NCBI GenBank assembly: GCA_039819115.1
Contig: JBCBST010000088.1
Location: forward strand, 1-13,965
DNA: 13,965 bases
Origin: Bacteroidota bacterium
Lineage (GTDB): Bacteria > Bacteroidota > Rhodothermia > Balneolales > Balneolaceae
Direction of reading: 5' to 3'
In this document: positions 1,170-13,965 of the stretch, piece by piece
Layout of the letters: every line of letters starts with the position of its first letter
Numbering within the stretch: the first letter of the stretch is position 1
Made by a program: the position numbers and the translations under genes
Notes under the pieces: generated by a model
The model's database searches: none
Seen by the model: only the letters and a program-made list of their open reading frames with translations
Told to the model about the DNA's origin: nothing

Positions 1170-1177
1170 AAAGACTA

Positions 1178-2677: not shown

Positions 2678-2679
2678 AA

Positions 2680-2711
2680 AAAGCCCTTCATGGTTTAACA
2701 TAAAGGGCTTT
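2680..2711. terminator. Bidirectional rho-independent terminator hairpin
   Basis: AAAGCCCTT (2680-2688) pairs with AAGGGCTTT (2703-2711) across a 14-nt loop. On the minus strand the stem is followed by a T-run (complement of the A-run 2676-2682), so it closes the tRNA array. On the plus strand it lies directly after the GT2 stop codon. Confidence 0.65.
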
Positions 2712-2786
2712 GTACCGCGTACGGGATTCGAACCCGTGCTACCGCCGTGAAAGGGCGGCGTCCTAGGCCTCTAGACGAACGCGGCA
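2712..2786. repeat. Direct repeat copy A (75 nt, contains tRNA-Glu)
   Basis: Identical base for base to 3039-3113 by direct comparison. Confidence 0.95.
2713..2785 (-). tRNA. tRNA-Glu (anticodon UUC), copy 1
   Basis: The reverse complement folds by hand as a cloverleaf: acceptor GCCGCGT/ACGCGGT, anticodon stem CCGCC/GGCGG, loop CTTTCAC, T-arm ACGGG-TTCGAAT-CCCGT, discriminator A. It is very close to the canonical bacterial tRNA-Glu sequence. CCA is not encoded. Confidence 0.93.
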
Positions 2787-2804
2787 TAGGGGAACAAGAT
2801 TTTG

Positions 2805-2879
2805 GGAGCCTGATGGGAATTGAACCCACGGCCTCTGGTGCCACAAACCAGCGCTCTAACCAACTGAGCTACAGGCTCC
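2805..2879 (-). tRNA. tRNA-His (anticodon GUG) with encoded G-1
   Basis: Reverse complement is GGAGCCTGTAGCTCAGTTGGTTAGAGCGCTGGTTTGTGGCACCAGAGGCCGTGGGTTCAATTCCCATCAGGCTCC. Anticodon loop TTGTGGC. The 7-bp acceptor stem is fully paired, with an extra 5' G opposite C73, which is the His identity feature. Confidence 0.93.
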
Positions 2880-2889
2880 ATCAAGTCAA

Positions 2890-2933
2890 TCAATAAACAA
2901 AACATTCCAACTAATGATCATCATAGTTGGAAT
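2890..2933 (-). terminator. Terminator-like hairpin inside the tRNA array
   Basis: A perfect 10-bp stem, ATTCCAACTA (2904-2913) with TAGTTGGAAT (2924-2933), and a 10-nt loop. On the minus strand it is followed by GTTTTGTTTATTG. The stem is AT-rich, so its strength is uncertain. Confidence 0.35.
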
Positions 2934-3015
2934 TGGTTAGAGTAGTAAATACTCCAATAGCAATTGCACTCACAATGATAAAGAACATGACAAGGTAAAT
3001 AATATGCGATGGCAT
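2911..3015 (-). CDS. Candidate 34-aa hydrophobic micro-protein (MPSHIIYLVMFFIIVSAIAIGVFTTLTNSNYDDH)
   Basis: Hand translation of the minus strand gives ATG at 3015-3013 and TAG at 2913-2911. It contains one predicted TM helix. It is below the ORF-track length cutoff. There is no clear RBS and no homology evidence. Confidence 0.2.
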   Translation of the reverse strand: MPSHIIYLVMFFIIVSAIAIGVFTTLTNSNYDDH

Positions 3016-3038
3016 CTCTTTGTTTGCTCGTTACAATA

Positions 3039-3113
3039 GTACCGCGTACGGGATTCGAACCCGTGCTACCGCCGTGAAAGGGCGGCGTCCTAGGCCTCTA
3101 GACGAACGCGGCA
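3039..3113. repeat. Direct repeat copy B (75 nt, contains tRNA-Glu)
   Basis: Identical base for base to 2712-2786. The copies are spaced 327 nt apart. Confidence 0.95.
3040..3112 (-). tRNA. tRNA-Glu (anticodon UUC), copy 2
   Basis: Sequence is identical to the copy at 2713-2785. Confidence 0.93.
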
Positions 3114-3128
3114 AAAAATAAAACCGTG

Positions 3129-3199
3129 AGGCGACAGGCGGATTCGAACCGCCGTACGAGGTTTTGCAGACCTCTGCCTAGCCACTCGGCCATGTCGCC
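3129..3199 (-). tRNA. tRNA-Cys (anticodon GCA)
   Basis: Reverse complement is GGCGACATGGCCGAGTGGCTAGGCAGAGGTCTGCAAAACCTCGTACGGCGGTTCGAATCCGCCTGTCGCCT. Anticodon stem GAGGT/ACCTC with loop CTGCAAA, T-arm GGCGG-TTCGAAT-CCGCC, and a U73 discriminator as expected for Cys. Confidence 0.92.
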
Positions 3200-3220
3200 T
3201 TTTAAAACAAGGTTTGTTTG

Positions 3221-3294
3221 TACGCCCATCAGGACTCGAACCTGAAACCTATTGCTTAGAAGGCAATTGCTCTATCCAGTTGAGCTATGGGCGC
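3221..3294 (-). tRNA. tRNA-Arg (anticodon UCU)
   Basis: Reverse complement is GCGCCCATAGCTCAACTGGATAGAGCAATTGCCTTCTAAGCAATAGGTTTCAGGTTCGAGTCCTGATGGGCGTA. Anticodon stem ATTGC/GCAAT with loop CTTCTAA, and T-arm TCAGG-TTCGAGT-CCTGA. Confidence 0.92.
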
Positions 3295-3349
3295 TCAAGT
3301 AATCCAGCTTATTAAGCTGAAGGCGCTCAAATCAATGTATCAATACGTC

Positions 3350-3373
3350 AAAAAAATAAGACCTTACGTCTTA
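3350..3373 (-). terminator. Short terminator-like hairpin downstream of tRNA-Pro
   Basis: On the minus strand, TAAGAC-GTAAG-GTCTTA (6-bp stem, 5-nt loop) is followed immediately by TTTTTTT (complement of the A-run 3350-3356). The stem is short. Confidence 0.4.
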
Positions 3374-3378
3374 CCAAG

Positions 3379-3452
3379 TCGGGGAGACAGGATTTGAACC
3401 TGCGACCCTTCGCTCCCAAAGCGAATGCGCTACCGGGCTGCGCCACTCCCCG
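3379..3452 (-). tRNA. tRNA-Pro (anticodon UGG)
   Basis: Reverse complement is CGGGGAGTGGCGCAGCCCGGTAGCGCATTCGCTTTGGGAGCGAAGGGTCGCAGGTTCAAATCCTGTCTCCCCGA. Anticodon stem TTCGC/GCGAA with loop TTTGGGA, and acceptor CGGGGAG/CTCCCCG. Confidence 0.93.
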
Positions 3453-3484
3453 TTTCCACTCAGCTTCGCTGTTTGGAAAGACTC

Positions 3485-3516
3485 CAAATATACGGGTTTC
3501 CATATACCCTAATCAA
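3485..3516 (-). promoter_or_regulatory. Candidate Bacteroidota-type promoter for the tRNA array
   Basis: The minus strand reads TTG (3516-3514), a 21-nt spacer, then TATATTTG (3492-3485). This matches the TAnnTTTG -7 consensus described for Bacteroides-type sigma-A promoters. It sits 32 nt upstream of the tRNA-Pro 5' end. This is a motif match only. Confidence 0.35.
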
Positions 3517-3557
3517 CGGTAGAATGTATTTAATTATCAGATTGCCGAAATTATTGT

Positions 3558-4823
3558 CTAGCCGTTCAGTATAGCTGCTACATATCTATCCCAGCTCATC
3601 GCAGACGCAGCCTTTCTGACATGTTCGCCGGGTAAGGGATGATCCAGAAACCGAAGCATTTGTGCAGCCATCGATTCGATGTCACCGGGTTCAGCCAGGT
3701 ATCCATTAAATCCATCGGTCACGGTTTCAGGGAAGTGTCCGACACGGGTTGCCAGAATAGGGAGTTCGAAGTTATAGGTTAGTGATTCGACACCGGACGG
3801 AGTGGCAGCAAGGTAGTACAGCACGCTACAGTCGCTTACCTGGAAGTACTTATGAACGTCCTCGTTTGGAATGAACGTGTTTTTAACAATCACGGTGTCA
3901 TCCAGACCGAGTTCTTTCACCCGGTTAAGGGGTCTGTAGTCCTGTTCACTTTCGGAGTTTTTAAGCAGCAGTTTTTGAGCAATGCCAAACAGAGTTTGCT
4001 TTATCTTTGTACTGAGCTTTGAAGTATCTAATGTGGACCAGAATTCTTCTCCGCAAACCAGAAATGAGACGTCATCCCGTTGTTCAGCAACAAGCTTAAA
4101 AGCCTCTATGGCATGATGCAAGCCTTTATACTTGCGGATGAACCCGAAAAAGAGAAATACGTGTTGCTTCAATCCCAGTTCGCTCTTAAACGCTTCAGTA
4201 TCAAATGCGGGATCGGGTTGATAGAGATCATAAACGGGATGAAAAAGCTTGATGACTGTAGTTTTTTCGGTAGAACGTTCTCCGGATTCATTGACTTCGA
4301 GGTCTAATCCGGGAAAGAGTGCGGTAAGCTCGTCAACCGTTTTATAGGCATGGGTGATAAATGTATCGGCATGTTTTATTCCCAGTTTGGTAAAACGCTC
4401 ATCAATGGTACTCCCTTCTTTCTGAACCACAAAGTGAAGGTCAAAGATAATTTCGGCTTCGCATGCTTGTTTGATCCACTTTGCGATTCTTCCCATAGGC
4501 AGCCCTTGAATAGAAATAGCCCATTGAAAGATGACCTTATCCGGTTTAAGACTTGAAATAAAGCGGGCTGTTTTCCTCCAGCTCAGGGGATTATTGTAAT
4601 CGGTTAGATACTCAACGCGAATATCGGTGCCCTCTAAGAAATCACTGCGGCTGGCTTTATCAATAAACTCTCGTGGAATGATGGACGGGTATTGATTGGA
4701 CCAGGAGACAATCGTCACTTCATTCTCCGGGTTTTTGGCTAATGTTTTTGCCAGAGAGGTATTGTAATTAGACAGGCCACCTTTAAACCTGGGTCCGGGG
4801 CCAAAACATACAATCTTAGGCAT
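3558..4823 (-). CDS. Group-1 (GT4, GT-B fold) glycosyltransferase
   Basis: 421 aa. The C-terminal half carries the Glycos_transf_1-type pattern (TPSGVESLTYNFELPILATRVGHFPETVTDGFNGYLAEPGDIESMA). The start lies 5 nt downstream of the epimerase stop, so the two are probably co-transcribed. Confidence 0.85.
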   Translation of the reverse strand: MPKIVCFGPGPRFKGGLSNYNTSLAKTLAKNPENEVTIVSWSNQYPSIIPREFIDKASRSDFLEGTDIRVEYLTDYNNPLSWRKTARFISSLKPDKVIFQWAISIQGLPMGRIAKWIKQACEAEIIFDLHFVVQKEGSTIDERFTKLGIKHADTFITHAYKTVDELTALFPGLDLEVNESGERSTEKTTVIKLFHPVYDLYQPDPAFDTEAFKSELGLKQHVFLFFGFIRKYKGLHHAIEAFKLVAEQRDDVSFLVCGEEFWSTLDTSKLSTKIKQTLFGIAQKLLLKNSESEQDYRPLNRVKELGLDDTVIVKNTFIPNEDVHKYFQVSDCSVLYYLAATPSGVESLTYNFELPILATRVGHFPETVTDGFNGYLAEPGDIESMAAQMLRFLDHPLPGEHVRKAASAMSWDRYVAAILNG

Positions 4824-4828
4824 GGATG

Positions 4829-5875
4829 CTACACACTGTATTTGGAAACAGCAACATCATACACGCGTCGCATTCCTTCCCGGACCGATATTTTTGGTTT
4901 CCATCCCAAGCGGTCCTGTACATGTTCCATATTCGCGTAACGGGAATGAACACCAACGGGTTTATCCAGAAGTGTTTTGATGTCGGGTTTGTAACCGGCA
5001 AAATCGGTAAATACATCAATGATCTCTAGGAAGGAAGTTAGCTTTCCACTTCCAATGTTGATGGCGCTTCCATCGGTTATATGATCCATAGCGAGCAGGG
5101 TGCAGTCCATCACATCATCAATATGTACAAAATCTCGCCCTTGCTTTCCGGTTCCCCATACCTCAAATGGATTTTCTTTTAATGCGGCACGCCGTGCAAT
5201 AGCCGGAACCGGATACGATAAGTCCTGATCTTCACCATATCCTGAGAACGGACGAATGCAGGTTACCGATACATCATAATAGCTTGCAGCTATATGAGCA
5301 AGATATTCCCCAGTCAGTTTAGACCAGCCGTACGTCATGTCGGGCTGCCCCATTTTCTTAAAATCGATGTCTGCTTCGCTTAATGCGATGGCATCGGCTT
5401 CGGTTTGTAAGTCAACAGGATAAGCAGCACTGGAACTCGGGTAGAGTACCCGTTTTGGTTTTTGACGGCATATCCACAGAAAGAATTCGGCATCTATCGA
5501 TAAATCAAGAGCAACCATCATGGGATCACCATCAATTTTAGCTCGCCCTCCTACAATCGCCGCAAAATGAAACACATCTTCAAAGTTGGTTATCGGTAAA
5601 CCATACGTCTTATGGATATAGTTTTGGTCATCTAACAATCCCCTGATGAAGTAACGGGCATCCTCCTTTAAAAAAATCATGCGCTCATCATCTCCGTAAA
5701 AAGTCAGGTCGCCTTCTACCCGGGAAGTTGTGCCTTCAGGTAGCCAGGTATCGGGATGAGTGCCAACAGATAAATCGTCAATAAATAAAATCGTATCACG
5801 GGTTGTGTTGTAGATGCGCTGAACAAAATTACGTCCCACAAAGCCACATCCGCCGGTTATGAGATGATAAAGCAT
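4829..5875 (-). CDS. NAD-dependent epimerase/dehydratase (extended SDR)
   Basis: N-terminal Rossmann motif ITGGCGFVGRNF and the catalytic YxxxK motif in YGWSKLTGE. 348 aa. The sugar-nucleotide specificity cannot be assigned from the sequence. Confidence 0.88.
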   Translation of the reverse strand: MLYHLITGGCGFVGRNFVQRIYNTTRDTILFIDDLSVGTHPDTWLPEGTTSRVEGDLTFYGDDERMIFLKEDARYFIRGLLDDQNYIHKTYGLPITNFEDVFHFAAIVGGRAKIDGDPMMVALDLSIDAEFFLWICRQKPKRVLYPSSSAAYPVDLQTEADAIALSEADIDFKKMGQPDMTYGWSKLTGEYLAHIAASYYDVSVTCIRPFSGYGEDQDLSYPVPAIARRAALKENPFEVWGTGKQGRDFVHIDDVMDCTLLAMDHITDGSAINIGSGKLTSFLEIIDVFTDFAGYKPDIKTLLDKPVGVHSRYANMEHVQDRLGWKPKISVREGMRRVYDVAVSKYSV

Positions 5876-5960: not shown

Positions 5961-6977
5961 ATGAGACTTTTTCTCCTGTTCTTCCTGTTGCTGACCTCCG
6001 ATGTTTTAGCTCAGATCCGCATCACAGACGTTCCTTCACGTATTGGTTCTATAATGACTAATAACCCGGCCGGGACTGATGTATCGTCTGCGGGGAACAC
6101 CTTTCAAGTTACAACGGACTCTATATTTATTGCTCATGTTACGGGTAATACCCTACAGGCTGTTTCCTATAACGGGATATCAGGAGGTGACGAATCATTG
6201 GCGATTTACGGGTTGTTAGACGGAGGCTTTGTTGTAAGGGAAAATGTTGTGAATTTTTCGATATATGATTCATTTGGCGCGCTTATAACCAGTATTTCGA
6301 ATAGCAGTAATAGTGAGGAAGGCGAGTCTATCTCGGAGCTTGCTATGGATCCCAACGGAAAGACGATTGTTTTCTACACGGCAACGATTATTCAAAGCGG
6401 GAAAAAGGGTTCGGTGGCACGTGTTGTGCAGGGTAACAAAGCGGTTGGGTTTTATTATGATGATGCCCGGGAAATATCAACAGTAGAAGTTTCACAGAAC
6501 GGAGAACTGATTGGGATCATAAACCATCGTGATGGTGAAGACTACCAGGTTCAGATTTTTGACCGTTTTGGTAATGAGATCTCTACTATATCTTTTGATC
6601 GTGAAATAAAAGGGGTGACTTTTTCTGATAATGGATTGAATGCAACGGTATTTTCCAGTGGAAGAGTAGGTGTTTACACGCTTAAAAATGCGAATCGGAT
6701 TGCCAGTACCAGTTTCAGGGGAGGTAATTTAATACGTGCTGCTTTTTTTCCAGAGGAGAATACTATTGTAGGTGTTCTGGGAGATATGAATGAAAACAGG
6801 GTTCAGGATATGAAAATAAGGGCGGTAAACATTAAATCCCGAACCATAAAAGAACAACCGTACCGTGAGGCTCTGATGTATTCTCCGGTAGTGGATATAA
6901 TGCTAGTTCGTGATCGTGCATATTCTTACCGTATAAATGGGTTTAGCCGAGAGTTAAGTATTGATATAACGTTTTAA
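5961..6977 (+). CDS. Secreted repeat protein with PD40/TolB-like beta-propeller repeats
   Basis: Signal peptide MRLFLLFFLLLTSDVLAQ. Recurrent PD40-like strands (LAMDPNGKTIVFY, VEVSQNGELIGII, VTFSDNGLNATVF). Internal repeat FSIYDSFGALITSIS / VQIFDRFGNEISTISF. The C-terminus ends in Phe. Confidence 0.6.
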   Translation: MRLFLLFFLLLTSDVLAQIRITDVPSRIGSIMTNNPAGTDVSSAGNTFQVTTDSIFIAHVTGNTLQAVSYNGISGGDESLAIYGLLDGGFVVRENVVNFSIYDSFGALITSISNSSNSEEGESISELAMDPNGKTIVFYTATIIQSGKKGSVARVVQGNKAVGFYYDDAREISTVEVSQNGELIGIINHRDGEDYQVQIFDRFGNEISTISFDREIKGVTFSDNGLNATVFSSGRVGVYTLKNANRIASTSFRGGNLIRAAFFPEENTIVGVLGDMNENRVQDMKIRAVNIKSRTIKEQPYREALMYSPVVDIMLVRDRAYSYRINGFSRELSIDITF

Positions 6978-7124
6978 TTGCTGGTTCTATAATTCAGAAA
7001 CGGTTCTTTTTTCGAGTTCTATCATCTAGTTGATGGTTGAAATAAAATGTGGAAAACTCGTTTTTTTTTCTGATGTTTGATAGCTCGGTATACTTGCGAA
7101 ATTTACAATGTAACTTCAGGCGGC

Positions 7125-8930
7125 ATGAAATTAATAACTTCGGGAATCATTATACTGATTTGCTTTTGTAGTGGAATACTCGTTGCTCAGATACCGGATC
7201 GCGAGCGTACTGCATTAGACGAACAGGTAGAGGAAGCAAAGTACGAACGTTATTATGAAATTCTGCTAGACAACTCCTTATCTGAATATTATAAGGAGGG
7301 CACATTTATTGTTGATGTCAAAGCCACGGTATCCAGGGTATTGGTTCCCAAAGGTTACGAGTTAGTAGAACCCGAAGCACGCCCGGGATTGGAAAGTCTT
7401 CCGGGATTACCGGTTATTCCACCAAGCCTTCGGTCCGGAAATCGTGAACAGGACAGCCTTCGGATTTCAGGCTTTGATTCCGGGCTGAGACTGGATCGTA
7501 TTGTGGTTAAAATTCTGGTAGATACATCGTATAGCACGGAGGACATGGACTTTGTAGAGGAGGCTGTTACCATGCTAGCCAATGTGGATCCGTTCAGAGG
7601 AGATGATGTTTCCATTGAGAAAAAAATATTTCCGAGAAATGAACGTGGCATCATAAAAGATGCTGCCACCCCTCAGCCAGAACAAAAGGTTGAACGCCTG
7701 GTAACTGAAGAACCTGTACAACCTCCATCCACTCCGGAAGGATTGGACTGGAACGACCCAAAGGTATTGTGGTATGTAATTGGAGCGCTGGGCGCACTGT
7801 TGTTTGGTCTGTTATTATTTCTGGCGTTACGAAGGCCGGAAAGCGGGCGACAGGTTTCGGAACTGGAGGCTGCACATAATCTGGAGCGACTGGTACAGTC
7901 CAAATCGGAACAGCTAAAAACAGATGTTGAAATACAAGACCTTAGTTCAGATCGACTGATCAAGTATGAAGAGGATAAAACATACACCACGAATACAACG
8001 ATAAGCAATCCAAAGTTAGTAGCCGATCTGGTTTCGCAATGGATTGCAACCGAAGAAGAAGAGGGTATGGTAAAGGGAGTAAGGGCGATATTCAGCACCG
8101 ATCCATTGCTGTTAGACATTCTTAAACCTCATCTGAGCGATACGAACTATGAGACGCTTCGATTTGGTATATCAAATATTGAAAGCATTCCAGCGAACGA
8201 CCGCGCCGAAGAAGCCAACAGGTTCAGAAGGGCCATTCAACAAACAAAAGCAGTGAATGGAGAAGATGATAATTCCGCGAATCTGTTCGATTTTGTACAA
8301 CAGTTATCCGACCAACAACTCCTTCATCTCATTAAAGGCGAGTCTGATGAGATGACAGCGATTATGCTTGCACAGGTAGCTGGCGAACGGGCAGGATACG
8401 TACTTCAAAAAATGGATGAAGATCGTAAGCTTTCCATTCTGCTTAAGATGGGAAAAATATCGAACATCCCGGTTTCAATTTATAAACGTGTAGCCTCTCA
8501 TTTTTCCAGTAAGGCACTATCGGTATCTGATATGAAGTATGTCGCTGCCGATGGTGTGGAGTCCATTCTGGCGACGATAGATTCCTTACCTATTTCCGAA
8601 CAAGACGAGTTTGTACAGTCCATTGCCAAGAAAGACTTAAACCTCGCTAAAAAGATCCGGAAATACTTTATTGCCTTTGACGATATCCCTTCAGTCGATC
8701 CCAATATTCTTCAACGGGCATTGGAAAGCAAAAACTCGGAAGAAATGGTGCTAGCGCTAACAGGTGCTGGTGAGCAGGTAAAAAGAGCCATGCTCGATGT
8801 ACGTCCGAACAGAGAACAACAACTGATTTTAGCCGAATTGGCCGAAAACCGGGAGGTAAATACGTATTCCATTGAGACCATTCGAAAGGACATTCTAATG
8901 GAAATACGAAAGCAGCTTAAGAGAGGATAG
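7125..8930 (+). CDS. FliF(C-terminal portion)-FliG fusion-like membrane protein (rotor-like protein)
   Basis: ATG at 7125 gives the signal/TM sequence MKLITSGIIILICFCSGILVAQ; the track ORF begins at TTG 7077. The periplasmic part ends with LDRIVVKILVD...EEAVTMLANVDPFRGDDVSIEKKIFP, which resembles the end of the FliF periplasmic domain (...RLSVAVVVN...REAMGF..RGD.v.V....F). A single TM segment follows (VLWYVIGALGALLFGLLLFLAL). NPKLVADLVSQWIATEEEE resembles the FliF C-terminal FliG-binding helix. After that come FliG N-, M- and C-like regions (FDFVQQL..., IRKYFIAFDDI..., LALTGAGEQVKRAML...). Confidence 0.75.
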   Translation: MKLITSGIIILICFCSGILVAQIPDRERTALDEQVEEAKYERYYEILLDNSLSEYYKEGTFIVDVKATVSRVLVPKGYELVEPEARPGLESLPGLPVIPPSLRSGNREQDSLRISGFDSGLRLDRIVVKILVDTSYSTEDMDFVEEAVTMLANVDPFRGDDVSIEKKIFPRNERGIIKDAATPQPEQKVERLVTEEPVQPPSTPEGLDWNDPKVLWYVIGALGALLFGLLLFLALRRPESGRQVSELEAAHNLERLVQSKSEQLKTDVEIQDLSSDRLIKYEEDKTYTTNTTISNPKLVADLVSQWIATEEEEGMVKGVRAIFSTDPLLLDILKPHLSDTNYETLRFGISNIESIPANDRAEEANRFRRAIQQTKAVNGEDDNSANLFDFVQQLSDQQLLHLIKGESDEMTAIMLAQVAGERAGYVLQKMDEDRKLSILLKMGKISNIPVSIYKRVASHFSSKALSVSDMKYVAADGVESILATIDSLPISEQDEFVQSIAKKDLNLAKKIRKYFIAFDDIPSVDPNILQRALESKNSEEMVLALTGAGEQVKRAMLDVRPNREQQLILAELAENREVNTYSIETIRKDILMEIRKQLKRG

Positions 8931-10031
8931 GTGATGCAAGCACGCAGTATAGCCGGGTTACTCTTAATGGTGATTATAGCCTCGACAGAGGTAGTTGCAC
9001 AGGAAAAAAAAGATGCTAACACCTATCTGTTACATAAGATTACCCCACAGATTGAGGCGGCACTGGGAGAGATACCGATTGGTATTCGACGGGTGTCGGT
9101 GTACCGCTTAAATTACGACCCGCAGTTTTTTACCCCGGAGGATGCCAATTACATCAGAGCAGAAGTTGAGGCTACGATCCAGAGAGGGAGTGCGATTCGG
9201 ATTCTTACTCCGCCGGAGTTGGAGCCGAATGATGAGCTTAAGATTTTTGGAAACGATAGTACTCTTCAGGTTTCAAACCTGGAAGGAAGATCCTTTGCTG
9301 ATAACTCGCAGATTCTTTTACAGGAAGTGGTTGAGCGATATGACATTCAGGGTTTGGTCGAGCTTACGATCCAGAAAAAATATTTTGAAGGGATTGTGCT
9401 AACTATGCGAATGATAAATCCTAACAACCAGGAATTAATCTTTGCCAGAAGCTTTGTTTCCAATCCTATCCGATTTACTGAGAAAAAGGACAGCAGTATT
9501 CATCACTTTGTGGCTAGTTTTGGTCTTGGAAACTGGAATGGAGAATCCTTTTTGGAAATACAGGATTCAGGCATGGGGCCCGATACGGTTTCTGTGAACA
9601 ATGATGACACCATCCTCGACTTAAATTTTAGTCTTTCCTACCGCCAGAGTATTTCGGATGATAATAGCAGCTACCTGGGGGCTTTGATCGGATTCCATAA
9701 CCTCAGGAGCAGAAACATTGATGCTTTTGATGTGAATTTCTTCGAGCTTGGACTGACCTGGGATCAGGCCATATCCAAACGTATAGCTCACATTAATGAG
9801 TATCGGGTAAAGCTGCTGGCTAAAGGCAGTGTATTGTTTCCTTTAGGTGATCGTTCGGGGGAGCTGATTATGATAAGTCCCGGGTTACAGCTTAACCTTA
9901 CTCGGAATTTAAGTTTGAATCTCTACACGCAATCTATTCTTTCGGGAGAACGCATTCGGGAAGACGATTCTTTTCAAGTTATTACTTTCAATCGATTTGG
10001 CTATGGCTTACAAGGAATGGTACGTTTTTAG
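8931..10031 (+). CDS. Outer-membrane protein: periplasmic alpha/beta domain plus C-terminal beta-barrel; function unknown
   Basis: GTG at 8931 directly abuts the upstream TAG, and ATG at 8934 is the alternative start. GAGAGGA lies just upstream. Signal peptide ...LLMVIIASTEVVAQ. The C-terminal third shows amphipathic beta-strand alternation and ends GYGLQGMVRF, with the terminal Phe of a beta-signal. Confidence 0.65.
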   Translation: MMQARSIAGLLLMVIIASTEVVAQEKKDANTYLLHKITPQIEAALGEIPIGIRRVSVYRLNYDPQFFTPEDANYIRAEVEATIQRGSAIRILTPPELEPNDELKIFGNDSTLQVSNLEGRSFADNSQILLQEVVERYDIQGLVELTIQKKYFEGIVLTMRMINPNNQELIFARSFVSNPIRFTEKKDSSIHHFVASFGLGNWNGESFLEIQDSGMGPDTVSVNNDDTILDLNFSLSYRQSISDDNSSYLGALIGFHNLRSRNIDAFDVNFFELGLTWDQAISKRIAHINEYRVKLLAKGSVLFPLGDRSGELIMISPGLQLNLTRNLSLNLYTQSILSGERIREDDSFQVITFNRFGYGLQGMVRF

Positions 10032-10617
10032 ATTGTCTTTTTTGGGAATATTGCTCATTTCCATATTGTCCTGTTCCGGACAAAAGGAGCTACTGGATAA
10101 GCTAACCGAACTGGAGTCAGACACTACAGGTGCTGTTGACAAACCGGGTGTTACCGATCCGGCGCCCAGATCTGATGAAGAACGTATTGAGGTTACTTAT
10201 GGGAATAAGAGTACCGGGCTAACCATGAAGCTGAACCCGGATAAAGATCGCTTTTTTATGGAGCTGAGAGGGGTGCGAGCCGAACAAACGGATACGGTTA
10301 TTGTAGCGGACAGTACGTTAATGCGTCAACGCAATGAGGATATGCAGCGTATGCTCGCATCATTTAGGGAAGCTCAGGATTTGTTATATCTGAATGAACT
10401 GGATCAGGCGGTAGCTAAAATCAATGAGGTATTGGATATCCAGGAAACAGCCGATGCCTACGCCCTCAAAGGCACGATCTATTTTTTGAAGGGTAATCGC
10501 ACCGCAGCACGGGCAAATTGGAACCGGGCAGTTCAGATCAACCCGAATTTGCCGATACCCAGCATTGAAGGGTTAGATGCAATCATACAAGAGCTTTTGG
10601 AGGAAAATCAACAATGA
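9997..10617 (+). CDS. TPR-containing lipoprotein
   Basis: Lipobox ILS-C (LLISILSCSGQ). The C-terminal TPR-like segment is AYALKGTIYFLKGNRTAARANWNRAVQINPNLP. The ATG at 9997 overlaps the upstream gene by 35 nt. A TTG at 10033, immediately after the upstream stop, is an alternative start. Confidence 0.7.
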   Translation: MAMAYKEWYVFRLSFLGILLISILSCSGQKELLDKLTELESDTTGAVDKPGVTDPAPRSDEERIEVTYGNKSTGLTMKLNPDKDRFFMELRGVRAEQTDTVIVADSTLMRQRNEDMQRMLASFREAQDLLYLNELDQAVAKINEVLDIQETADAYALKGTIYFLKGNRTAARANWNRAVQINPNLPIPSIEGLDAIIQELLEENQQ

Positions 10618-11456
10618 GAATTTCGGTAGCTAACATTCTTGGAGTTTTAATAAGCCTTGGTCTCATTGTATTTGGCGTTATGGAGGTTACGGGTTCCTCC
10701 GATTTAATAAATCGGTGGCTGGGTTCTTCAGGGTCCCGCTTCTTAAATATTCCCAGCTTAGCCATTGTTTTGGGTGGAGTTATGAACGCCGTGTTTATCA
10801 CGTATCAACCCAAATATATTGGAAAGGCATTTCTTAGTGTGTTCCTCATTTTCAATCATTCCAAAACCAATAACAAGCGCCTGAAACAAGATTTGGTTAA
10901 GATCCTGGAATGGAATGAACTCATTAAATCAAACCGGGTGAAATCCTTAAACAGCCTGGCCGAAGAGCATGCCAAGGAAGTTTCGGGGTTCCTGTTCTCT
11001 TTATTGAGCACCAACTACACCCAGGAAGAAATCGAATCGTTTGGTACGGTTAATGTTGAAGAACACTTTTACCGGAAAATGGTCATCGTAGATGTTTTAA
11101 AAGCGATGGGTGCCTCAGCACCAGCTTTTGGGATGTTTGGTACGTTGTTTGGACTGATTGTAATGTTAGGCAAACTTGAGGATCCTTCGGGTATGGGACC
11201 GGGTTTGGCCGCGGCATTGATAACCACCTTGTATGGAATATCGGTCTCCCGGTTTGTGTTTTATCCTATTGCGCATAAACTCAAGCAAATTGCTGAAATG
11301 GATCGCTTCAGGGAGTACTTTCTCATGGAAGGGATATTGATGATTAATGAGAAAAGATCGGCATTTTACATCCAGGATCGTCTCAACTCTTACCTGCAGC
11401 GTGAGCCAAACGCAGACGAGATCTATCAACCTGCATTAGCAGCTGAAAAAGCGTAA
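10614..11456 (+). CDS. motA: MotA/PomA-type stator channel subunit (MotA_ExbB family, 4 TM)
   Basis: Two N-terminal TM segments, a roughly 90-aa charged cytoplasmic loop, then the signature SAPAFGMFGTLFGLIVMLG...GLAAALITTLYGISVSRFVFYPIAHKL. The start overlaps the upstream stop as ATGA. Confidence 0.85.
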   Translation: MRISVANILGVLISLGLIVFGVMEVTGSSDLINRWLGSSGSRFLNIPSLAIVLGGVMNAVFITYQPKYIGKAFLSVFLIFNHSKTNNKRLKQDLVKILEWNELIKSNRVKSLNSLAEEHAKEVSGFLFSLLSTNYTQEEIESFGTVNVEEHFYRKMVIVDVLKAMGASAPAFGMFGTLFGLIVMLGKLEDPSGMGPGLAAALITTLYGISVSRFVFYPIAHKLKQIAEMDRFREYFLMEGILMINEKRSAFYIQDRLNSYLQREPNADEIYQPALAAEKA

Positions 11457-11458
11457 AA

Positions 11459-12145
11459 ATGGCACTGAACCGAGATAAAGTTGGGTACCGGGGCAGCCGT
11501 ATTCTCGAAGAAGAGATAGAGGAATCGGAATGGCTATTAACCTACAGTGATATCATTACGTTATTACTTGCCTTTTTTGCCGTTCTTATTGCGGTTTCAT
11601 ATGTAGATATCAATCTCTGGGAGCAGTTAAAGCAAGGACTCCGCTCTGAGATAAACAAAGAAGAAAATGTGCGAACACCGTTAGCCGAGGTTAAACGGGA
11701 TCTCGATGAACTGCTTGCGGAAGAAAAAACGAGAGGGTTGGTTGATATCACCCTTGGTAAAGATGGGATAAAGCTTTTCTTTAATAGCAGCAGTTTTTAC
11801 ACCTCAGGCGAAGCGGAGTTACTGCCTACCGGGCAGCAGATTATTGATAAGGTCACCCAGGCTATGAATGCAATCGACTACTACAAATTTAATGTAGATG
11901 TTGAAGGCCATACCGATAACGTTCCGATACAAACTGCGCGGTTTCCCTCCAACTGGGAACTTAGTGTGGCGAGAGCATCCGAAGTGGTTAAGTTTTTTAT
12001 CCAGGAAGGGATTGAGAGTGACCGACTCAAAGCCAGTGGATACGCCGATACCAAACCGGTGGTGCCTCACATAGATGCAAGCGGGAATCAAATTATTGAA
12101 AACCGGGCTTTAAACCGCCGTATCGTGGTCAGAATATACTACTGA
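11459..12145 (+). CDS. motB: MotB-type stator subunit with OmpA-like peptidoglycan-binding domain
   Basis: WLLTYSDIITLLLAFFAVL contains the conserved TM aspartate at codon 31 (nt 11549-11551). The OmpA-like domain reads GHTDNVPIQTARFPSNWELSVARASEVVKFF...NRRIVVRI. The gene starts 2 nt after the motA stop. Confidence 0.87.
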   Translation: MALNRDKVGYRGSRILEEEIEESEWLLTYSDIITLLLAFFAVLIAVSYVDINLWEQLKQGLRSEINKEENVRTPLAEVKRDLDELLAEEKTRGLVDITLGKDGIKLFFNSSSFYTSGEAELLPTGQQIIDKVTQAMNAIDYYKFNVDVEGHTDNVPIQTARFPSNWELSVARASEVVKFFIQEGIESDRLKASGYADTKPVVPHIDASGNQIIENRALNRRIVVRIYY

Positions 12146-13045
12146 TGGATCCTGGTCGGATGTACATTCCAGGATGTATTCATATTCCCGGATGAGTCGT
12201 TCCCGTACCGGAATGGATGCTTCATAAATCCGCTCCTGTTCCTCTTTATAAACTCTTCTGCCTTCCTCTGTCTCGATTGGGATGGGTGCTAATCCAAAGG
12301 CAGAAACATCATATGGGCTGGCCTTCATATCAATACGTCGGGCGTGGGAAGCCAGTTTAAAGGCATCAAAGATCAGGTCAGATGATATCCACGGAAATCC
12401 TTTAAACGCCCATTTATACAAATCCATATTGGTATGAATGCACCCGGCTTGCTCGTTTTCAGTAAAGCGTTCGCGGGTCAGGTCGTATTTATTGAAGGGC
12501 TGAGCTGGTTTCGTAAAAAAGCGGAAAGCATGAAAATGGGTGCACAGTAAAGGGCGCGATTCCACCACTTCCATAATCTCTTTTGACGAAAGACGAAGAG
12601 GTAGTTGCTGGTGACGTACATGCTCCGATCGGTATACCATGGCCCATTCATGCATACCAAAGCATCCAAAAGACGGCTTTCTATCCCGCGAAGCGGTAAG
12701 TAAGGAGTGTATCCATGTAAACGATTGCCGCTTTTTGGAGCTCAACGCATGTACATCAAGGTAGGCTGTGGCATCGGTTGATGTTAATTCCTTTATGGCT
12801 TTCAACTCATCGGTTTGATTTACAGCTAATCCAAACCTGATTCCGGGCGACCATTTTACCAACTGGCTGAATCGAAAGGAATAGTACTCGAACAAAAAAT
12901 CGATTACGGGATTCTTCTTTTGAAAAGATCGCTGCTTCATGTAATCTCCAAGCAGACTCTTCACGCCCTCTTCATGTTGGTGTTGTAGATTCTTCCAATC
13001 TGAACGGGTAAACACAGAATGTATATGCGCAGGATAATGTGCCAT
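12110..13045 (-). CDS. Conserved protein of unknown function; from memory, this family is often labelled '3-methyladenine DNA glycosylase' in automated annotation
   Basis: 311-aa ORF with the N-terminal motif NPVIDFLFEYYSFRFSQLVKWSPG, which I recognise from proteins carrying that label. I cannot verify the function. The 3' end overlaps motB by 36 nt in convergent orientation. Confidence 0.55.
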   Translation of the reverse strand: MAHYPAHIHSVFTRSDWKNLQHQHEEGVKSLLGDYMKQRSFQKKNPVIDFLFEYYSFRFSQLVKWSPGIRFGLAVNQTDELKAIKELTSTDATAYLDVHALSSKKRQSFTWIHSLLTASRDRKPSFGCFGMHEWAMVYRSEHVRHQQLPLRLSSKEIMEVVESRPLLCTHFHAFRFFTKPAQPFNKYDLTRERFTENEQAGCIHTNMDLYKWAFKGFPWISSDLIFDAFKLASHARRIDMKASPYDVSAFGLAPIPIETEEGRRVYKEEQERIYEASIPVRERLIREYEYILECTSDQDPSVVYSDHDTAV

Positions 13046-13080
13046 AGTGTAACATACGAACTCAATACTTCAAATTGGAC

Positions 13081-13965
13081 ATGAAGACAGCAGAATCTTC
13101 TATGAAGTCAGAGTTTTGGCACTTTATTGTTCATCTACGACTTCACTATCAGTTTTTGATTCTTTCAGGAGGGTTTTTGTTGCCCTTACTCTTGATTGAG
13201 GAGGTAATCTGGTCGGAGTACATCTACCAGTTTCTCGTTGTTTATATTTGTTTGTTTGGAGGAGCAACGGCCTACAACTCGTACTGGGATAAAGATGAAG
13301 GGGCGATAGGCGGGCTCAGGAATCCACCGAAGATGACCAAATGGATGTGGATAGCCTCTCTCTTACTCCAACTCGTCGGGTTTATTCTGATCCTTCCCTT
13401 CGGTTGGACTCAACAAGGGTTATATGTGCTCAGCTTTTTTCTGTTCTGGGCTTATTCTTCCCCTCTCGCCCGTTGGAAAGGAGATCCCCATCTGAGCATT
13501 TTAGCGATTGCCGTAAGTACAGGTACAAATTCCTTTTTAATGGGTACGATAGCTGCCGGGGGTACGGTTGAAGTCACAACAATTCTGTTGGCAATCGGGG
13601 TTTCGATGATTCTGGTGAGCCTGTATCCTATTTCGCAGGTGTACCAGATTGATGAAGACCAAAAACGGGGAGATCATACTTTTGCAGCCAGATATGGGTT
13701 AAGAGGAGTTCGGTATTTTTTCCTGATCACATTCGGTATTGGCGTTCTTTTAAGCTGGTGGATGATGTTGAATCTGGGTAAAACGGATATTGGATCCCTT
13801 TTTCTACTGGTGAGTCTGTGCTCTTTCGGTGTGCTCACCGTATTTGTGTTTCGGTTACATGGAGCTATTAAAGAATACCGTCTGGTTATGAATATCAAGT
13901 TTGGGGCATCGTTCAGTTTTGTAGTCTTTATCCTATTAACCCGATTAGTTCTTTCGATGTCTTAA
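13081..13965 (+). CDS. UbiA-family prenyltransferase (polytopic membrane protein)
   Basis: Multiple TM segments. An Asp-rich motif YNSYWDKDEG and a second motif YQIDEDQKRGDHTFAARYG are consistent with the two UbiA-superfamily Asp-rich motifs. ATG at 13081; the track start TTG at 13075 is the alternative. The stop is at the window end, 13963-13965. Confidence 0.8.
   Translation: MKTAESSMKSEFWHFIVHLRLHYQFLILSGGFLLPLLLIEEVIWSEYIYQFLVVYICLFGGATAYNSYWDKDEGAIGGLRNPPKMTKWMWIASLLLQLVGFILILPFGWTQQGLYVLSFFLFWAYSSPLARWKGDPHLSILAIAVSTGTNSFLMGTIAAGGTVEVTTILLAIGVSMILVSLYPISQVYQIDEDQKRGDHTFAARYGLRGVRYFFLITFGIGVLLSWWMMLNLGKTDIGSLFLLVSLCSFGVLTVFVFRLHGAIKEYRLVMNIKFGASFSFVVFILLTRLVLSMS

What the first reader, a model, noticed from the sequence alone, without database searches (positions are those of the whole stretch)
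7125..8930. Natural single-polypeptide fusion of a truncated FliF and a full-length FliG
Seen in sequence, using the 7077-frame numbering. aa 17-38 form a signal/TM segment. aa 66-186 form one periplasmic module ending RIVVKILVD...NVDPFRGDDVSIEKKIFP. A Pro-rich linker follows, then a TM at aa 229-251. aa 311-326 (NPKLVADLVSQWIATE, nt 8007-8054) resemble the extreme C-terminus of FliF that docks FliG. aa 333-390 resemble FliG_N (GVRAIFSTDPLLLDILKPHLSDTNYETLRFGISNIESIP...), aa 404-480 resemble FliG_M and aa 520-612 resemble FliG_C. Established knowledge: in flagella FliF and FliG are separate proteins bound about 1:1, and engineered Salmonella FliF-FliG fusions remain functional. Full FliF has three periplasmic ring-building motifs, of which RBM1/2 surround the export gate. 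Inference: only an RBM3-like segment appears to be retained here. That would fit a ring without a type III export gate, with FliG permanently attached.
Basis: partly seen in the sequence, partly recalled or inferred. Interest (0 to 1): 0.85.

Follow-up and report, generated by a model that had tools for sequence, protein, structure and literature searches.

The report
Flagellar rotor-stator module without a flagellum
One gene encodes the ring-building end of the flagellar protein FliF joined to a complete FliG rotor protein, in a conserved five-gene operon with its own MotA/MotB ion motor in bacteria reported to lack flagella, so it looks like an undescribed machine built from flagellar motor parts.

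Summary
ORF 7125-8930 (601 aa) reads: signal peptide, a periplasmic domain homologous to FliF RBM3 plus a collar-like hairpin, one membrane helix, the FliF C-terminal FliG-docking helices, then FliG N, M and C domains. A family profile aligns continuously across an in-silico E. coli FliF-C-terminus+FliG join (99.5%, E 8e-23). A pLDDT-87 model matches full-length FliG (E 1.6e-9) and FliF S-ring chains (E 4e-4). RBM1/2 and the FliM-binding EHPQR motif are absent. It is not an artefact. The fused ORF occurs in 204 clusters at 50% identity. It was found in 60 genomes, nearly all labelled Balneolales or Fibrobacterota. In every locus with enough downstream sequence it heads the operon fusion / outer-membrane-type protein / TPR lipoprotein / MotA / MotB. 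A published KEGG comparison finds no flagellar assembly genes in one carrier, the non-motile Gracilimonas tropica. Most likely (inferred) it forms a ring rotor turned by MotAB, without a type III export gate or switch, coupled to the outer membrane. Its output is unknown. I found no description in the searchable literature.

The parts
7125..8930 (+). FliF(RBM3 to C-terminus)-FliG fusion protein, 601 aa
7125..7187 (+). Signal-peptide-like N-terminus (aa 1-21). Cleavage before the Gln22 conserved in Balneolales is inferred.
   Evidence: The n/h/c-region pattern and the conserved A-Q are visible in the alignments. Cleavage was not tested.
7188..7634 (+). Periplasmic RBM3-like domain (alpha-beta-beta-alpha-beta) with a long beta-hairpin. 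It carries a near-invariant LPGLP loop (aa 92-96) and an RGD motif (aa 158-160).
   Evidence: pLDDT 92-98. Foldseek hits on FliF S-ring chains at E 4.3e-4 to 2e-3, TM 0.5-0.57. Pfam YscJ_FliF_C in 31 of 79 relatives. hhalign places it on FliF 219-435. D160 is invariant and P93, G94, P96, R158, G159 are at least 90% conserved in 101 sequences.
7758..7829 (+). Transmembrane helix (aa 212-235), equivalent to FliF TM2
   Evidence: Model helix 212-235. Aligned with the FliF TM2 region.
7947..8054 (+). FliF C-terminal-like helices (aa 275-310) containing the FliG-docking motif NPKLVADLVSQWIATE
   Evidence: hmmsearch alignment to Salmonella FliF 462-560, ending at its last residue (E 0.22). hhalign 76.7%, E 2.6e-6. 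The alignment is continuous through the FliF/FliG junction.
8055..8255 (+). FliG N-terminal-like domain (aa 311-377)
   Evidence: hhalign aligns from E. coli FliG residue 7 (99.2%). Foldseek covers the whole of FliG 3hjl. pLDDT 91-97.
8286..8585 (+). FliG middle domain (aa 388-487). The EHPQR motif is degenerate (ESDE...K).
   Evidence: Pfam FliG_M E 1.7e-9. Motif columns examined.
8592..8924 (+). FliG C-terminal domain with torque helix (R563 = E. coli R281; E571 = D289)
   Evidence: Pfam FliG_C E 6e-16. R is conserved in 89 of 101 sequences. Alignment shown.
8934..10031 (+). Operon gene 2: secreted 365-aa protein of no known family. Its C-terminal half is probably an outer-membrane beta-barrel.
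   Evidence: It has a signal peptide. Fifty-nine of 60 orthologs end in Phe and one in Tyr. It is conserved directly after the fusion gene. Weak OMP_b-brl hits occur in 3 of 23 orthologs. There is no PDB sequence match.
10003..10617 (+). Operon gene 3: TPR lipoprotein (~205 aa)
   Evidence: Pfam TPR_2 E 1.3e-7. A lipobox-like Cys follows the signal sequence in nearly all orthologs. Its position is conserved.
10614..11456 (+). Operon gene 4: MotA/PomA-type stator A subunit
   Evidence: Pfam MotA_ExbB E 7.5e-19. NCBIfam MotP 1e-34 and PomA 1e-29, against TolQ 5e-4. P173, P222 and T209 equivalents are conserved 55/55; R108 corresponds to R90.
11459..12145 (+). Operon gene 5: MotB-type stator B subunit with plug and OmpA-like peptidoglycan-binding domain
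   Evidence: Pfam MotB_plug 3e-12 and OmpA 7.5e-16. NCBIfam MotD 1.8e-47. D31 corresponds to E. coli D32.

Best explanation
The gene encodes a natural fusion of the C-terminal part of FliF to a complete FliG. The retained FliF part comprises RBM3 with a short collar-like hairpin, TM2 and the FliG-docking tail. The join is equivalent to reading straight from the last FliF codon into fliG. The gene is the first of a conserved five-gene operon that also encodes an outer-membrane-type protein, a TPR lipoprotein, and a flagellar-type MotA/MotB stator.

Proposed mechanism (inferred):
1. After signal-peptide cleavage, the periplasmic RBM3-like domains oligomerise into a ring in or on the inner membrane. 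This holds an equal number of covalently attached FliG units as a cytoplasmic ring.
2. MotA5B2 units anchored to peptidoglycan conduct ions through MotB Asp31.
3. MotA loop charges (R108, E117/E118) push on the FliG_C torque helix (R563, E571) and turn the ring.
4. There is no RBM1/2, so no seat for a type III export gate. There is no EHPQR motif, so no FliM/FliN switch. The device would therefore be a non-switching rotor that builds no rod or filament.
5. Its periplasmic hairpin tip, with the invariant LPGLP motif, is the likely coupling point to the outer-membrane protein and/or the lipoprotein. Proton-motive energy would thereby reach an as yet unknown envelope process.
For: Identity of the parts is shown.
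- FliG M and C domains by Pfam.
- Full-length FliG by hhalign: 99.2%, E 8.5e-20, FliG residues 7-317.
- Alignment across an E. coli FliF(500-552)+FliG concatenate: 99.5%, E 8.4e-23, with only a 4-residue gap at the join.
- N-terminal 312 aa colinear with FliF 156-552: 92%, E 8e-8.
- Pfam YscJ_FliF_C in 31 of 79 relatives, best E 7e-8, always on the periplasmic domain.
- AF2 model at pLDDT 87, with Foldseek hits to FliG (E 1.6e-9) and FliF S-ring/RBM3 chains (E 4e-4, TM 0.57).

Functional linkage is shown. The same five genes, in order, occur in all loci with enough flank across Balneolales and Fibrobacterota. A rearranged distant variant keeps all five component types.

The stator is flagellar-type: it has a plug and an OmpA domain, the MotB Asp, the MotA prolines, and matches MotP/PomA/MotD far better than TolQ/ExbB.

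Both rotor-stator charge pairs are present in the Balneolales clade.

The context is non-flagellar. No flagellar genes flank the operon in the annotated loci. Gracilimonas tropica carries the operon, is non-motile (PMC5167729), and is reported to lack flagellar assembly genes (PMC9909488).
Against: - Ring formation, rotation and any output are not shown.
- No multimer model could be made.
- In the Fibrobacterota clade the MotA R90/E98 equivalents and the FliG D288/D289 equivalents are replaced. The canonical electrostatic interface is therefore not universal in the family.
- Operon genes 2 and 3 have no detectable link to a known function.
- I could not scan whole genomes myself for flagellar genes.
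- A single TM helix per subunit, if the signal peptide is cleaved, differs from FliF.
Confidence: 0.6

Rival explanations
1. It is a non-rotating energy transducer or scaffold. The fusion forms small oligomers. MotAB acts on its FliG_C domain to drive conformational changes or signalling to the outer-membrane protein and lipoprotein, in the manner of Ton or Tol, rather than turning a large ring.
For: Other 5:2 motors (ExbBD, TolQR, GldLM, ZorAB) energise envelope processes without a FliG ring (established knowledge; reviewed in PMC9389320, seen). The canonical MotA/FliG charges are not kept in the Fibrobacterota clade. One variant operon is followed by a two-component system.
Against: The periplasmic domain is homologous specifically to a ring-building motif. 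All three FliG domains, which tile the C-ring top, are retained at high model confidence. The stator has the plug and OmpA features that PMC12505986 regards as special to torque-generating stators.
Confidence: 0.17
2. It is an evolutionary relic of a lost flagellum. The fliF-fliG-motAB remnants persist with little or no function.
For: A comparative study proposes gradual loss of flagellar genes in Balneolaceae (PMC9909488). Partial flagellar gene sets are common in non-motile genomes (PMC12199754).
Against: The full-length ORF is conserved in 204 clusters at 50% identity and in two phylum-level groups, with invariant motifs. Three of the five operon genes are flagellar-type, and the two non-flagellar partners are strictly conserved with them. 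The five genes abut or overlap, leaving no intergenic gaps. The family has diversified (LysM variants, tandem RBM variants). All of this indicates selection for function.
Confidence: 0.1
3. It is the MS/C-ring protein, or an accessory rotor protein, of a genuine but unusual flagellum whose other genes lie elsewhere in the genome.
For: Balneola vulgaris is reported to be flagellated (PMC5167729). JGI pipelines name homologs 'flagellar motor switch protein FliG'. I could not scan whole genomes.
Against: RBM1/2, which surround the export gate in FliF, are absent, as is the FliM-binding motif. The protein scores 73 bits against the 226.7-bit cutoff of the FliG equivalog model. It is present in non-motile G. 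tropica, and in the genus Balneola; the genomes of both analysed in PMC9909488 are reported without flagellar assembly genes. The operon carries its own stator and envelope partners.
Confidence: 0.07
4. It is an assembly or frameshift artefact that joins two ordinary genes in this metagenome-assembled contig.
For: The window matches a 14-kb MAG contig. In E. coli, fliF and fliG are adjacent and overlapping, so a single-base error could fuse such genes.
Against: The same uninterrupted ORF, with a conserved junction sequence, is found in isolates (G. tropica DSM 19535, Balneola sp. EhC07), in closed chromosomes and in many independent assemblies. Moreover, the N-terminal part is not an ordinary full-length FliF.
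Confidence: 0.01

Closest known systems
Flagellar MS-ring/C-ring rotor (FliF + FliG) with MotAB/PomAB stator
   Same: It has homologous RBM3/collar, TM2, FliF C-terminal docking helices, and FliG N, M and C domains. It has the torque-helix Arg, 1:1 FliF:FliG logic, and a plug-plus-OmpA type stator with the conserved MotB Asp and MotA prolines.
   Different: It has no RBM1/RBM2 and a signal-peptide-like N-terminus instead of TM1. The two proteins are covalently fused. The EHPQR FliM-binding motif is lost. No type III secretion, rod, hook, filament or FliM/N genes accompany it. Dedicated outer-membrane and lipoprotein partners do. It occurs in bacteria reported as non-flagellated.
Engineered FliF-FliG fusions (Salmonella; Vibrio FliFG, PDB 8z4d/8z4g; PMC10941966, PMC11481574)
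   Same: The FliF C-terminus is covalently linked to the FliG N-terminus. The engineered Vibrio fusion still assembles rings, as its S-ring structures show. That the Salmonella fusions support motility is established knowledge not checked here.
   Different: Those are laboratory constructs of full-length FliF inside complete flagella. This one is natural, truncated to RBM3, and outside a flagellum.
Other ring-building-motif proteins (SctJ/PrgK of injectisomes, SpoIIIAG/AH of sporulation)
   Same: They share the RBM alpha-beta-beta-alpha-beta fold used to build membrane-associated rings. This is established knowledge.
   Different: No such chain appeared among the 50 listed Foldseek hits, whereas FliF RBM3 chains filled ranks 14-30. 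None of those proteins is fused to FliG or paired with MotAB.
5:2 ion-driven motors that energise the cell envelope (GldLM/PorLM with PorKN ring and PorG in type IX secretion; ExbBD-TonB; TolQRA; AglRQS; ZorAB)
   Same: The concept is the same: an inner-membrane ion motor plus lipoprotein and outer-membrane partners delivers energy across the periplasm. The cogwheel model of PorLM driving a PorKN ring (PMC12365241) is the nearest functional analogy.
   Different: Those motors transmit through the B subunit or a periplasmic partner and have no FliG or FliF homolog. Here the stator is flagellar-type and the presumed driven element is a FliG ring. PADLOC found no Zorya-type system beyond generic ZorB/MotB similarity.
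Periplasmic stator scaffolds of elaborated flagellar motors (Vibrio MotX/MotY, Campylobacter PflA/PflB, FlgP/FlgO)
   Same: TPR/Sel1-type proteins, lipoproteins and outer-membrane proteins accompany a MotAB-type stator. This resemblance is from my own knowledge and is a lead only.
   Different: No sequence similarity was detected for operon gene 2. The TPR lipoprotein shows only generic TPR hits.

Membership tests
FliG (flagellar rotor/switch protein) | FliG C-terminal domain with torque helix | tested here: met
   Pfam FliG_C E 6e-16 on aa 499-600. The R281 equivalent R563 is conserved in 89 of 101 sequences. Foldseek matches FliG_C structures at rmsd ~2 A.
FliG (flagellar rotor/switch protein) | FliG middle domain | tested here: met
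   Pfam FliG_M E 1.7e-9 on aa 397-469.
FliG (flagellar rotor/switch protein) | FliG N-terminal domain that binds the FliF C-terminus | tested here: met
   It is not seen by Pfam at the right place in this protein; the hit is a cross-hit on the M domain. hhalign aligns from FliG residue 7 (99.2%). Foldseek covers all 321 residues of 3hjl. Relative P0264 has a Pfam FliG_N hit at the correct position.
FliG (flagellar rotor/switch protein) | EHPQR motif (FliM docking) | tested here: not met
   The query reads E-S-D-E...K. Only the Glu is conserved in the family, in 75 of 101 sequences.
FliG (flagellar rotor/switch protein) | Score above the curated equivalog cutoff (TIGR00207) | tested here: not met
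   73.4 bits against a cutoff of 226.7. It is a FliG homolog but not an orthodox FliG.
FliF (MS-ring protein) | RBM3 / S-ring domain (C-terminal part of Pfam YscJ_FliF_C) | tested here: met
   The query alone gives E 0.062. At family level 31 of 79 members hit, best E 7e-8. hhalign gives 92%, E 8e-8. Foldseek hits FliF RBM3 chains at E 4.3e-4, TM 0.57, on a domain with pLDDT 92-98.
FliF (MS-ring protein) | RBM1 and RBM2 (Pfam YscJ_FliF, PF01514), which surround the export gate | tested here: not met
   There is no PF01514 hit in the query or in the Pfam-scanned relatives. The periplasmic part is only about 150 aa and aligns with FliF from about residue 219 onward.
FliF (MS-ring protein) | Two transmembrane helices flanking the periplasmic region | tested here: inconclusive
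   The C-terminal TM (aa 212-235) is present. The N-terminal hydrophobic segment looks like a cleavable signal peptide with a conserved A-Q. Cleavage was not tested.
FliF (MS-ring protein) | C-terminal FliG-binding helices | tested here: met
   The consensus 's.PK.VAdL..WI..DEE' aligns with FliF 'nDPRVVALVIRQWMSNDHE' and ends at the last FliF residue (E 0.22 alone). hhalign gives 76.7%, E 2.6e-6. The alignment is continuous through the junction.
Flagellar stator MotA/MotB (PomAB type) | MotA channel prolines and Thr; MotB Asp, plug and OmpA-like domain | tested here: met
   P173, P222 and T209 equivalents are conserved 55/55. D31 corresponds to D32. Pfam MotB_plug 3e-12 and OmpA 7.5e-16.
Flagellar stator MotA/MotB (PomAB type) | Score above curated equivalog cutoffs | tested here: not met
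   The best hits are MotP at 119.7 bits against 394 and MotD at 162 bits against 283. They are related to flagellar stators but are not members of any curated equivalog.
Flagellar stator MotA/MotB (PomAB type) | MotA R90/E98 charges pairing with FliG D289/R281 | tested here: inconclusive
   They are present in Balneolales (R108; E117/E118; FliG R563, E571). In the Fibrobacterota clade they are replaced by G and A/K, and the FliG D288/D289 positions are GG.
Bacterial flagellum (whole system) | Type III export apparatus, rod, hook, filament and FliM/FliN genes | tested here: not met
   None occurs in the window or in the annotated flanks of L001, L003, L004, L068 and L069. G. tropica and Balneola genomes are reported without flagellar assembly genes (PMC9909488). 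I could not scan whole genomes myself.
Zorya or other anti-phage defence systems with MotAB-like motors | ZorA plus ZorC/D-type partners | tested here: not met
   PADLOC gave only generic ZorB hits on MotB and none for the other five proteins.

The most novel reading that the evidence does not exclude
The operon encodes a previously unrecognised trans-envelope rotary machine that works without type III secretion. A FliF-RBM3/FliG ring is turned by flagellar-type MotAB and coupled to an outer-membrane protein and a lipoprotein. It would be widespread in non-flagellated Balneolales, in Fibrobacterota and in other uncultured lineages. It would be either a reduced descendant of the flagellar motor put to a new use, or a surviving relative of the rotor-stator module that predates its union with the export apparatus.
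Probability: 0.4. Interest if true: 0.92.

Novelty: new variant of a known kind. Interest (0 to 1): 0.8.

Why it matters
Flagellar rotor proteins (FliF, FliG) and torque-generating MotAB stators are regarded as parts that make sense only inside a flagellum. [quoted passage not shown]" (PMC12199754). They also treat the stator plug, OmpA domain and torque interface as flagellum-specific innovations (PMC12505986).

This family pairs the rotor-stator core with envelope partners but with no export gate, rod or filament. It is conserved, diversified and operon-encoded, and it occurs in bacteria reported to lack flagella.

If it rotates, it is a new use of a rotary motor, with an unknown output at the outer membrane. 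It would also be a natural minimal system for studying torque generation and ring assembly, with a fixed 1:1 FliF:FliG ratio.

It also makes an old evolutionary question testable: can the flagellar motor module exist and be selected independently of the type III secretion apparatus? A cultured carrier is available for experiments (Gracilimonas tropica DSM 19535).

Tried and rejected
- Pfam on the N-terminal half alone gave only a sub-threshold YscJ_FliF_C hit (E 0.062). Family-level evidence was needed.
- The first AF2 run, with 24 close homologs, modelled the periplasmic domain poorly (pLDDT 30-60). A 101-sequence diverse alignment fixed this.
- PDB sequence searches with family profiles found FliF only at E 0.2.
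- A homolog search with E. coli FliF returned only enterobacterial sequences at 85% identity or more. The FliF side of the hhalign comparison was therefore shallow and its probabilities conservative.
A 9-sequence alignment worked, but it biases the taxonomic picture toward lineages that keep the [DN]M[KR][YFR]V[AT][AS]DG[VI] motif.
- The listing of cluster members gave almost no taxonomy for distant members. The one exception was a Sericytochromatia/Tanganyikabacteria record.
- Operon gene 2 had no Pfam or PDB sequence match beyond weak OMP_b-brl hits.
- PADLOC excluded a known defence system.
- The sigma-70 promoter and terminator scan was uninformative, with counts at or below shuffled expectation.
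- The glycosyltransferase genes upstream looked like a functional clue, but they are not linked to the operon in other genomes.
- Eight literature searches found no description of this family. The library lacks most subscription journals, so prior description cannot be excluded.
Full report
**The observation.** The window holds an uninterrupted ORF at 7077-8930 (+). Its real start is most likely ATG 7125, giving 601 aa, because all aligned homologs begin at that methionine. Pfam finds FliG_M (aa 397-469, E 1.7e-9) and FliG_C (aa 499-600, E 6e-16). The Pfam FliG_N hit falls on the M domain and is a cross-hit. The NCBIfam FliG equivalog model scores 73 bits against a cutoff of 227. The protein is therefore a FliG homolog but not an orthodox FliG.

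**Not an artefact.** A search of 5.8 billion proteins returned 176 hits, and the 120 listed are full-length (about 600-645 aa, 45-58% identity). One is an identical protein from a 14-kb Bacteroidota MAG contig. Another is the protein of the isolate Gracilimonas tropica. A profile of the N-terminal 312 residues, searched against 1.84 billion cluster representatives, found 204 proteins at E<=1e-3. Most are about 600 aa long. A genome scan found 60 loci. Nearly all are labelled Balneolales (Balneola, Gracilimonas, Balneolaceae MAGs) or Fibrobacterota MAGs, at 26-53% identity over the whole length. One distant member is annotated as Sericytochromatia/Tanganyikabacteria. The fusion junction is conserved in all of them.

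**Is the N-terminal half FliF?** The query alone gives only a sub-threshold YscJ_FliF_C hit (E 0.062). At family level the signal is clear.
- Thirty-one of 79 diverse members hit YscJ_FliF_C at E<=0.01 (best 7e-8). The hit always joins the last ~50-70 positions of the profile to the C-terminal part of the periplasmic domain.
- hhalign of the family profile (aa 1-320, 101 sequences) against a shallow E. coli-type FliF alignment gives 92% probability, E 8e-8. Query 1-312 is colinear with FliF 156-552. The periplasmic domain lies on FliF 219-435, which is RBM3 with its collar insertion. The TM helix lies on TM2. The motif "s.PK.VAdL..WI..DEE" lies on "nDPRVVALVIRQWinNDHE" and ends at the last FliF residue.
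- The RGD motif (aa 158-160; D160 invariant, R158 and G159 at least 90% conserved in 101 sequences) aligns with the KRGD of FliF.

**Structure.** A first model from 24 close homologs was poor in the periplasmic domain. A model from 101 diverse sequences reached mean pLDDT 87, with 92-98 in that domain. The domain is alpha(25-52), beta(61-80), a loop carrying the near-invariant LPGLP, beta(112-132), alpha(138-151), beta(161-166). This is the ring-building-motif topology with a long hairpin where FliF has its beta-collar. Foldseek against the PDB gives full-length FliG first (3hjl, E 1.6e-9, 322 columns for a 321-residue chain). It then gives FliF S-ring/RBM3 chains from Salmonella and Vibrio (E 4.3e-4 to 4e-3, TM 0.48-0.57 normalised to the RBM3-only target chains, lower for longer FliF chains). 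Apart from FliG and those FliF chains, the only match below E 0.01 is none; one integrative FliF-YlxF model scores 0.013, and the next unrelated fold, OsmC/Ohr, starts at E 0.06. The low-confidence model had already given the same ranking.

**The junction.** hhalign of the cytoplasmic family profile (aa 270-601) against the single E. coli FliG sequence gives 99.2%, E 8.5e-20, and covers FliG residues 7-317 of 331. All three FliG domains are therefore present. Against an in-silico concatenate of E. coli FliF residues 500-552 and FliG, the alignment improves to 99.5%, E 8.4e-23. It runs without interruption from the FliF tail into FliG, with a 4-residue gap at the join. In E. coli, fliF and fliG are adjacent and overlap by 8 nt. 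The simplest origin is loss of the stop between adjacent fliF and fliG genes, together with loss of everything upstream of RBM3. That origin is inference.

**What is missing.**
- No relative has a PF01514 (RBM1/2) hit, and the periplasmic region is too short to hold those motifs.
- The EHPQR motif that docks FliM is reduced to its Glu.
- The N-terminal hydrophobic segment has the form of a signal peptide, followed by a Gln that is conserved in Balneolales. Cleavage would leave a single-pass protein. This is inferred, by analogy with the Bacteroidetes Q-rule paper listed.

**Context.** The gene heads five same-strand genes that abut or overlap, leaving no intergenic gaps.
1. The fusion.
2. A 365-aa secreted protein of no known family. 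Fifty-nine of its 60 orthologs end in Phe and one in Tyr, as outer-membrane beta-barrel proteins do.
3. A TPR protein of about 205 aa with a conserved lipobox-like Cys.
4. MotA.
5. MotB.

The stator matches flagellar MotP, PomA and MotD models far better than TolQ or ExbB. It has the MotB plug, the OmpA-like domain and the channel Asp (D31), and the MotA P173, P222 and T209 equivalents. The same five genes in the same order occur in every locus with enough flank, in both Balneolales and Fibrobacterota. The flanking genes differ between genomes. The glycosyltransferase genes upstream in this window are therefore not part of the system. Distant variants keep the theme. One is an 807-aa LysM-RBM3-FliG protein followed by MotA, MotB and a two-component system. 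Another is an operon with a gene-2-like protein, a protein of three tandem RBM3-like repeats plus TPR, a TPR protein, a 594-aa fusion, MotA and MotB.

**Flagellar or not.** No type III secretion, rod, hook, filament or FliM/N gene lies in the window or in the annotated flanks of five other loci. Gracilimonas tropica DSM 19535 carries the operon. It is described as non-motile (PMC5167729). A KEGG-based comparison of Balneolaceae reports no flagellar assembly genes in G. tropica, Balneola and several other genera (PMC9909488). I could not scan whole genomes myself.

**How it most likely works.**

*Shown:*
- The parts are homologs of the S-ring, the FliF-FliG joint, the whole of FliG, and a flagellar-type stator.
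- They are genetically linked to an outer-membrane-type protein and a lipoprotein.

*Inferred:*
- The RBM3-like domains form a ring that arrays an equal number of FliG units.
- MotA5B2 units anchored to peptidoglycan turn the ring through the MotA loop and the FliG_C torque helix.
- With no export gate seat and no switch complex, the device neither exports nor reverses under CheY control.
- The LPGLP hairpin tip couples it to the outer-membrane and lipoprotein partners.

In Balneolales both canonical charge pairs are present: MotA R108 and E117/118, with FliG E571 and R563. In the Fibrobacterota clade the MotA residues and the FliG D288/D289 equivalents are replaced, while the FliG Arg is kept. 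This is a clade-level difference representing only one or two evolutionary events. It neither proves nor disproves the interface. The output process is unknown.

**Comparison with what is known.** The closest systems are the flagellar rotor-stator core and the laboratory FliF-FliG fusions. Vibrio fusion rings have been solved (PDB 8z4d and 8z4g; PMC11481574). The nearest functional analogy is the type IX secretion motor, in which PorLM is thought to drive a PorKN ring attached to the outer-membrane protein PorG (PMC12365241). The protein fails defining tests for an orthodox FliG (equivalog score, EHPQR motif) and for an orthodox FliF (RBM1/2). I therefore file it as a new architectural variant built from both, not as a member of either family.

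**Novelty.** Public annotations call it "FliG C-terminal domain-containing protein", "hypothetical protein" or "FliG". No Pfam or NCBIfam model covers the fusion or its N-terminal domain. Eight full-text searches found nothing on it. Recent papers on stator evolution and on flagellar loss do not mention it. The library lacks most subscription journals, so I cannot exclude a prior description.

**Verdict.** The identity of the parts and their genetic linkage are secure. Rotation and function are plausible but untested. Interest is high.

Noticed in passing
window 2712-3452 (-): A cluster of six tRNA genes (Glu-UUC twice, His-GUG, Cys-GCA, Arg-UCU, Pro-UGG) fills the ORF-free, higher-GC stretch between the GT2 and GT4 genes.
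   Followed up: partly
window 24-5875: Envelope or polysaccharide-type genes lie here: an Omp85-family protein (24-1169), a GT2 similar to cellulose synthase/PgaC (1178-2677), a GT4 (3558-4823, -) and an NAD-dependent epimerase/dehydratase (4829-5875, -). They are not linked to the motor-like operon in other genomes.
   Followed up: partly
window 5961-6977 (+): A secreted 338-aa protein lies directly upstream of the fusion gene. It has a weak type IX secretion type-B C-terminal sorting-domain hit (NCBIfam E 1e-4) and weak beta-propeller-like hits. tblastn found no homolog anywhere in the 64 related loci.
   Followed up: partly
window 12110-13045 (-) and 13075-13965 (+): A 311-aa protein with no family hit lies here, followed by a UbiA-family prenyltransferase that may be cut by the window end: its ORF's last codon is the last complete codon of the window.
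   Followed up: no
L069 5876-13137: This is a rearranged relative of the operon. It reads: gene-2-like protein, a 532-aa protein with three tandem RBM3-like repeats plus TPR (P0241), a TPR protein, a 594-aa RBM3-FliG fusion, MotA, MotB. The extra RBM protein might stack as an additional periplasmic ring.
   Followed up: partly
L068 2896-11928; L067 3633-5080: LysM-bearing variants exist. One is an 807-aa LysM-RBM3-FliG protein followed by MotA, MotB, a response regulator and a histidine kinase, and preceded by a 983-aa protein with a faint CarboxypepD_reg hit. Another is a 322-aa LysM-RBM3 protein without FliG or MotAB nearby, followed by a small TPR protein.
   Followed up: partly
MotA and fusion genes of L004, L044-L063 versus the Balneolales loci: The clades differ at the presumed stator-rotor interface. 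Balneolales keep the MotA R90/E98-type charges and the FliG E at the D289 position. The Fibrobacterota clade has G and A/K in MotA and GG in FliG, while keeping the FliG R281 equivalent.
   Followed up: partly
fusion protein aa 92-96 and 158-160 (window 7398-7412, 7596-7604): The LPGLP loop at the tip of the periplasmic hairpin and an RGD motif are the most conserved positions of the whole 101-sequence family. D160 is invariant, and P93, G94, P96, R158 and G159 are at least 90% conserved. RGD is shared with FliF, whereas LPGLP looks specific to this family.
   Followed up: partly
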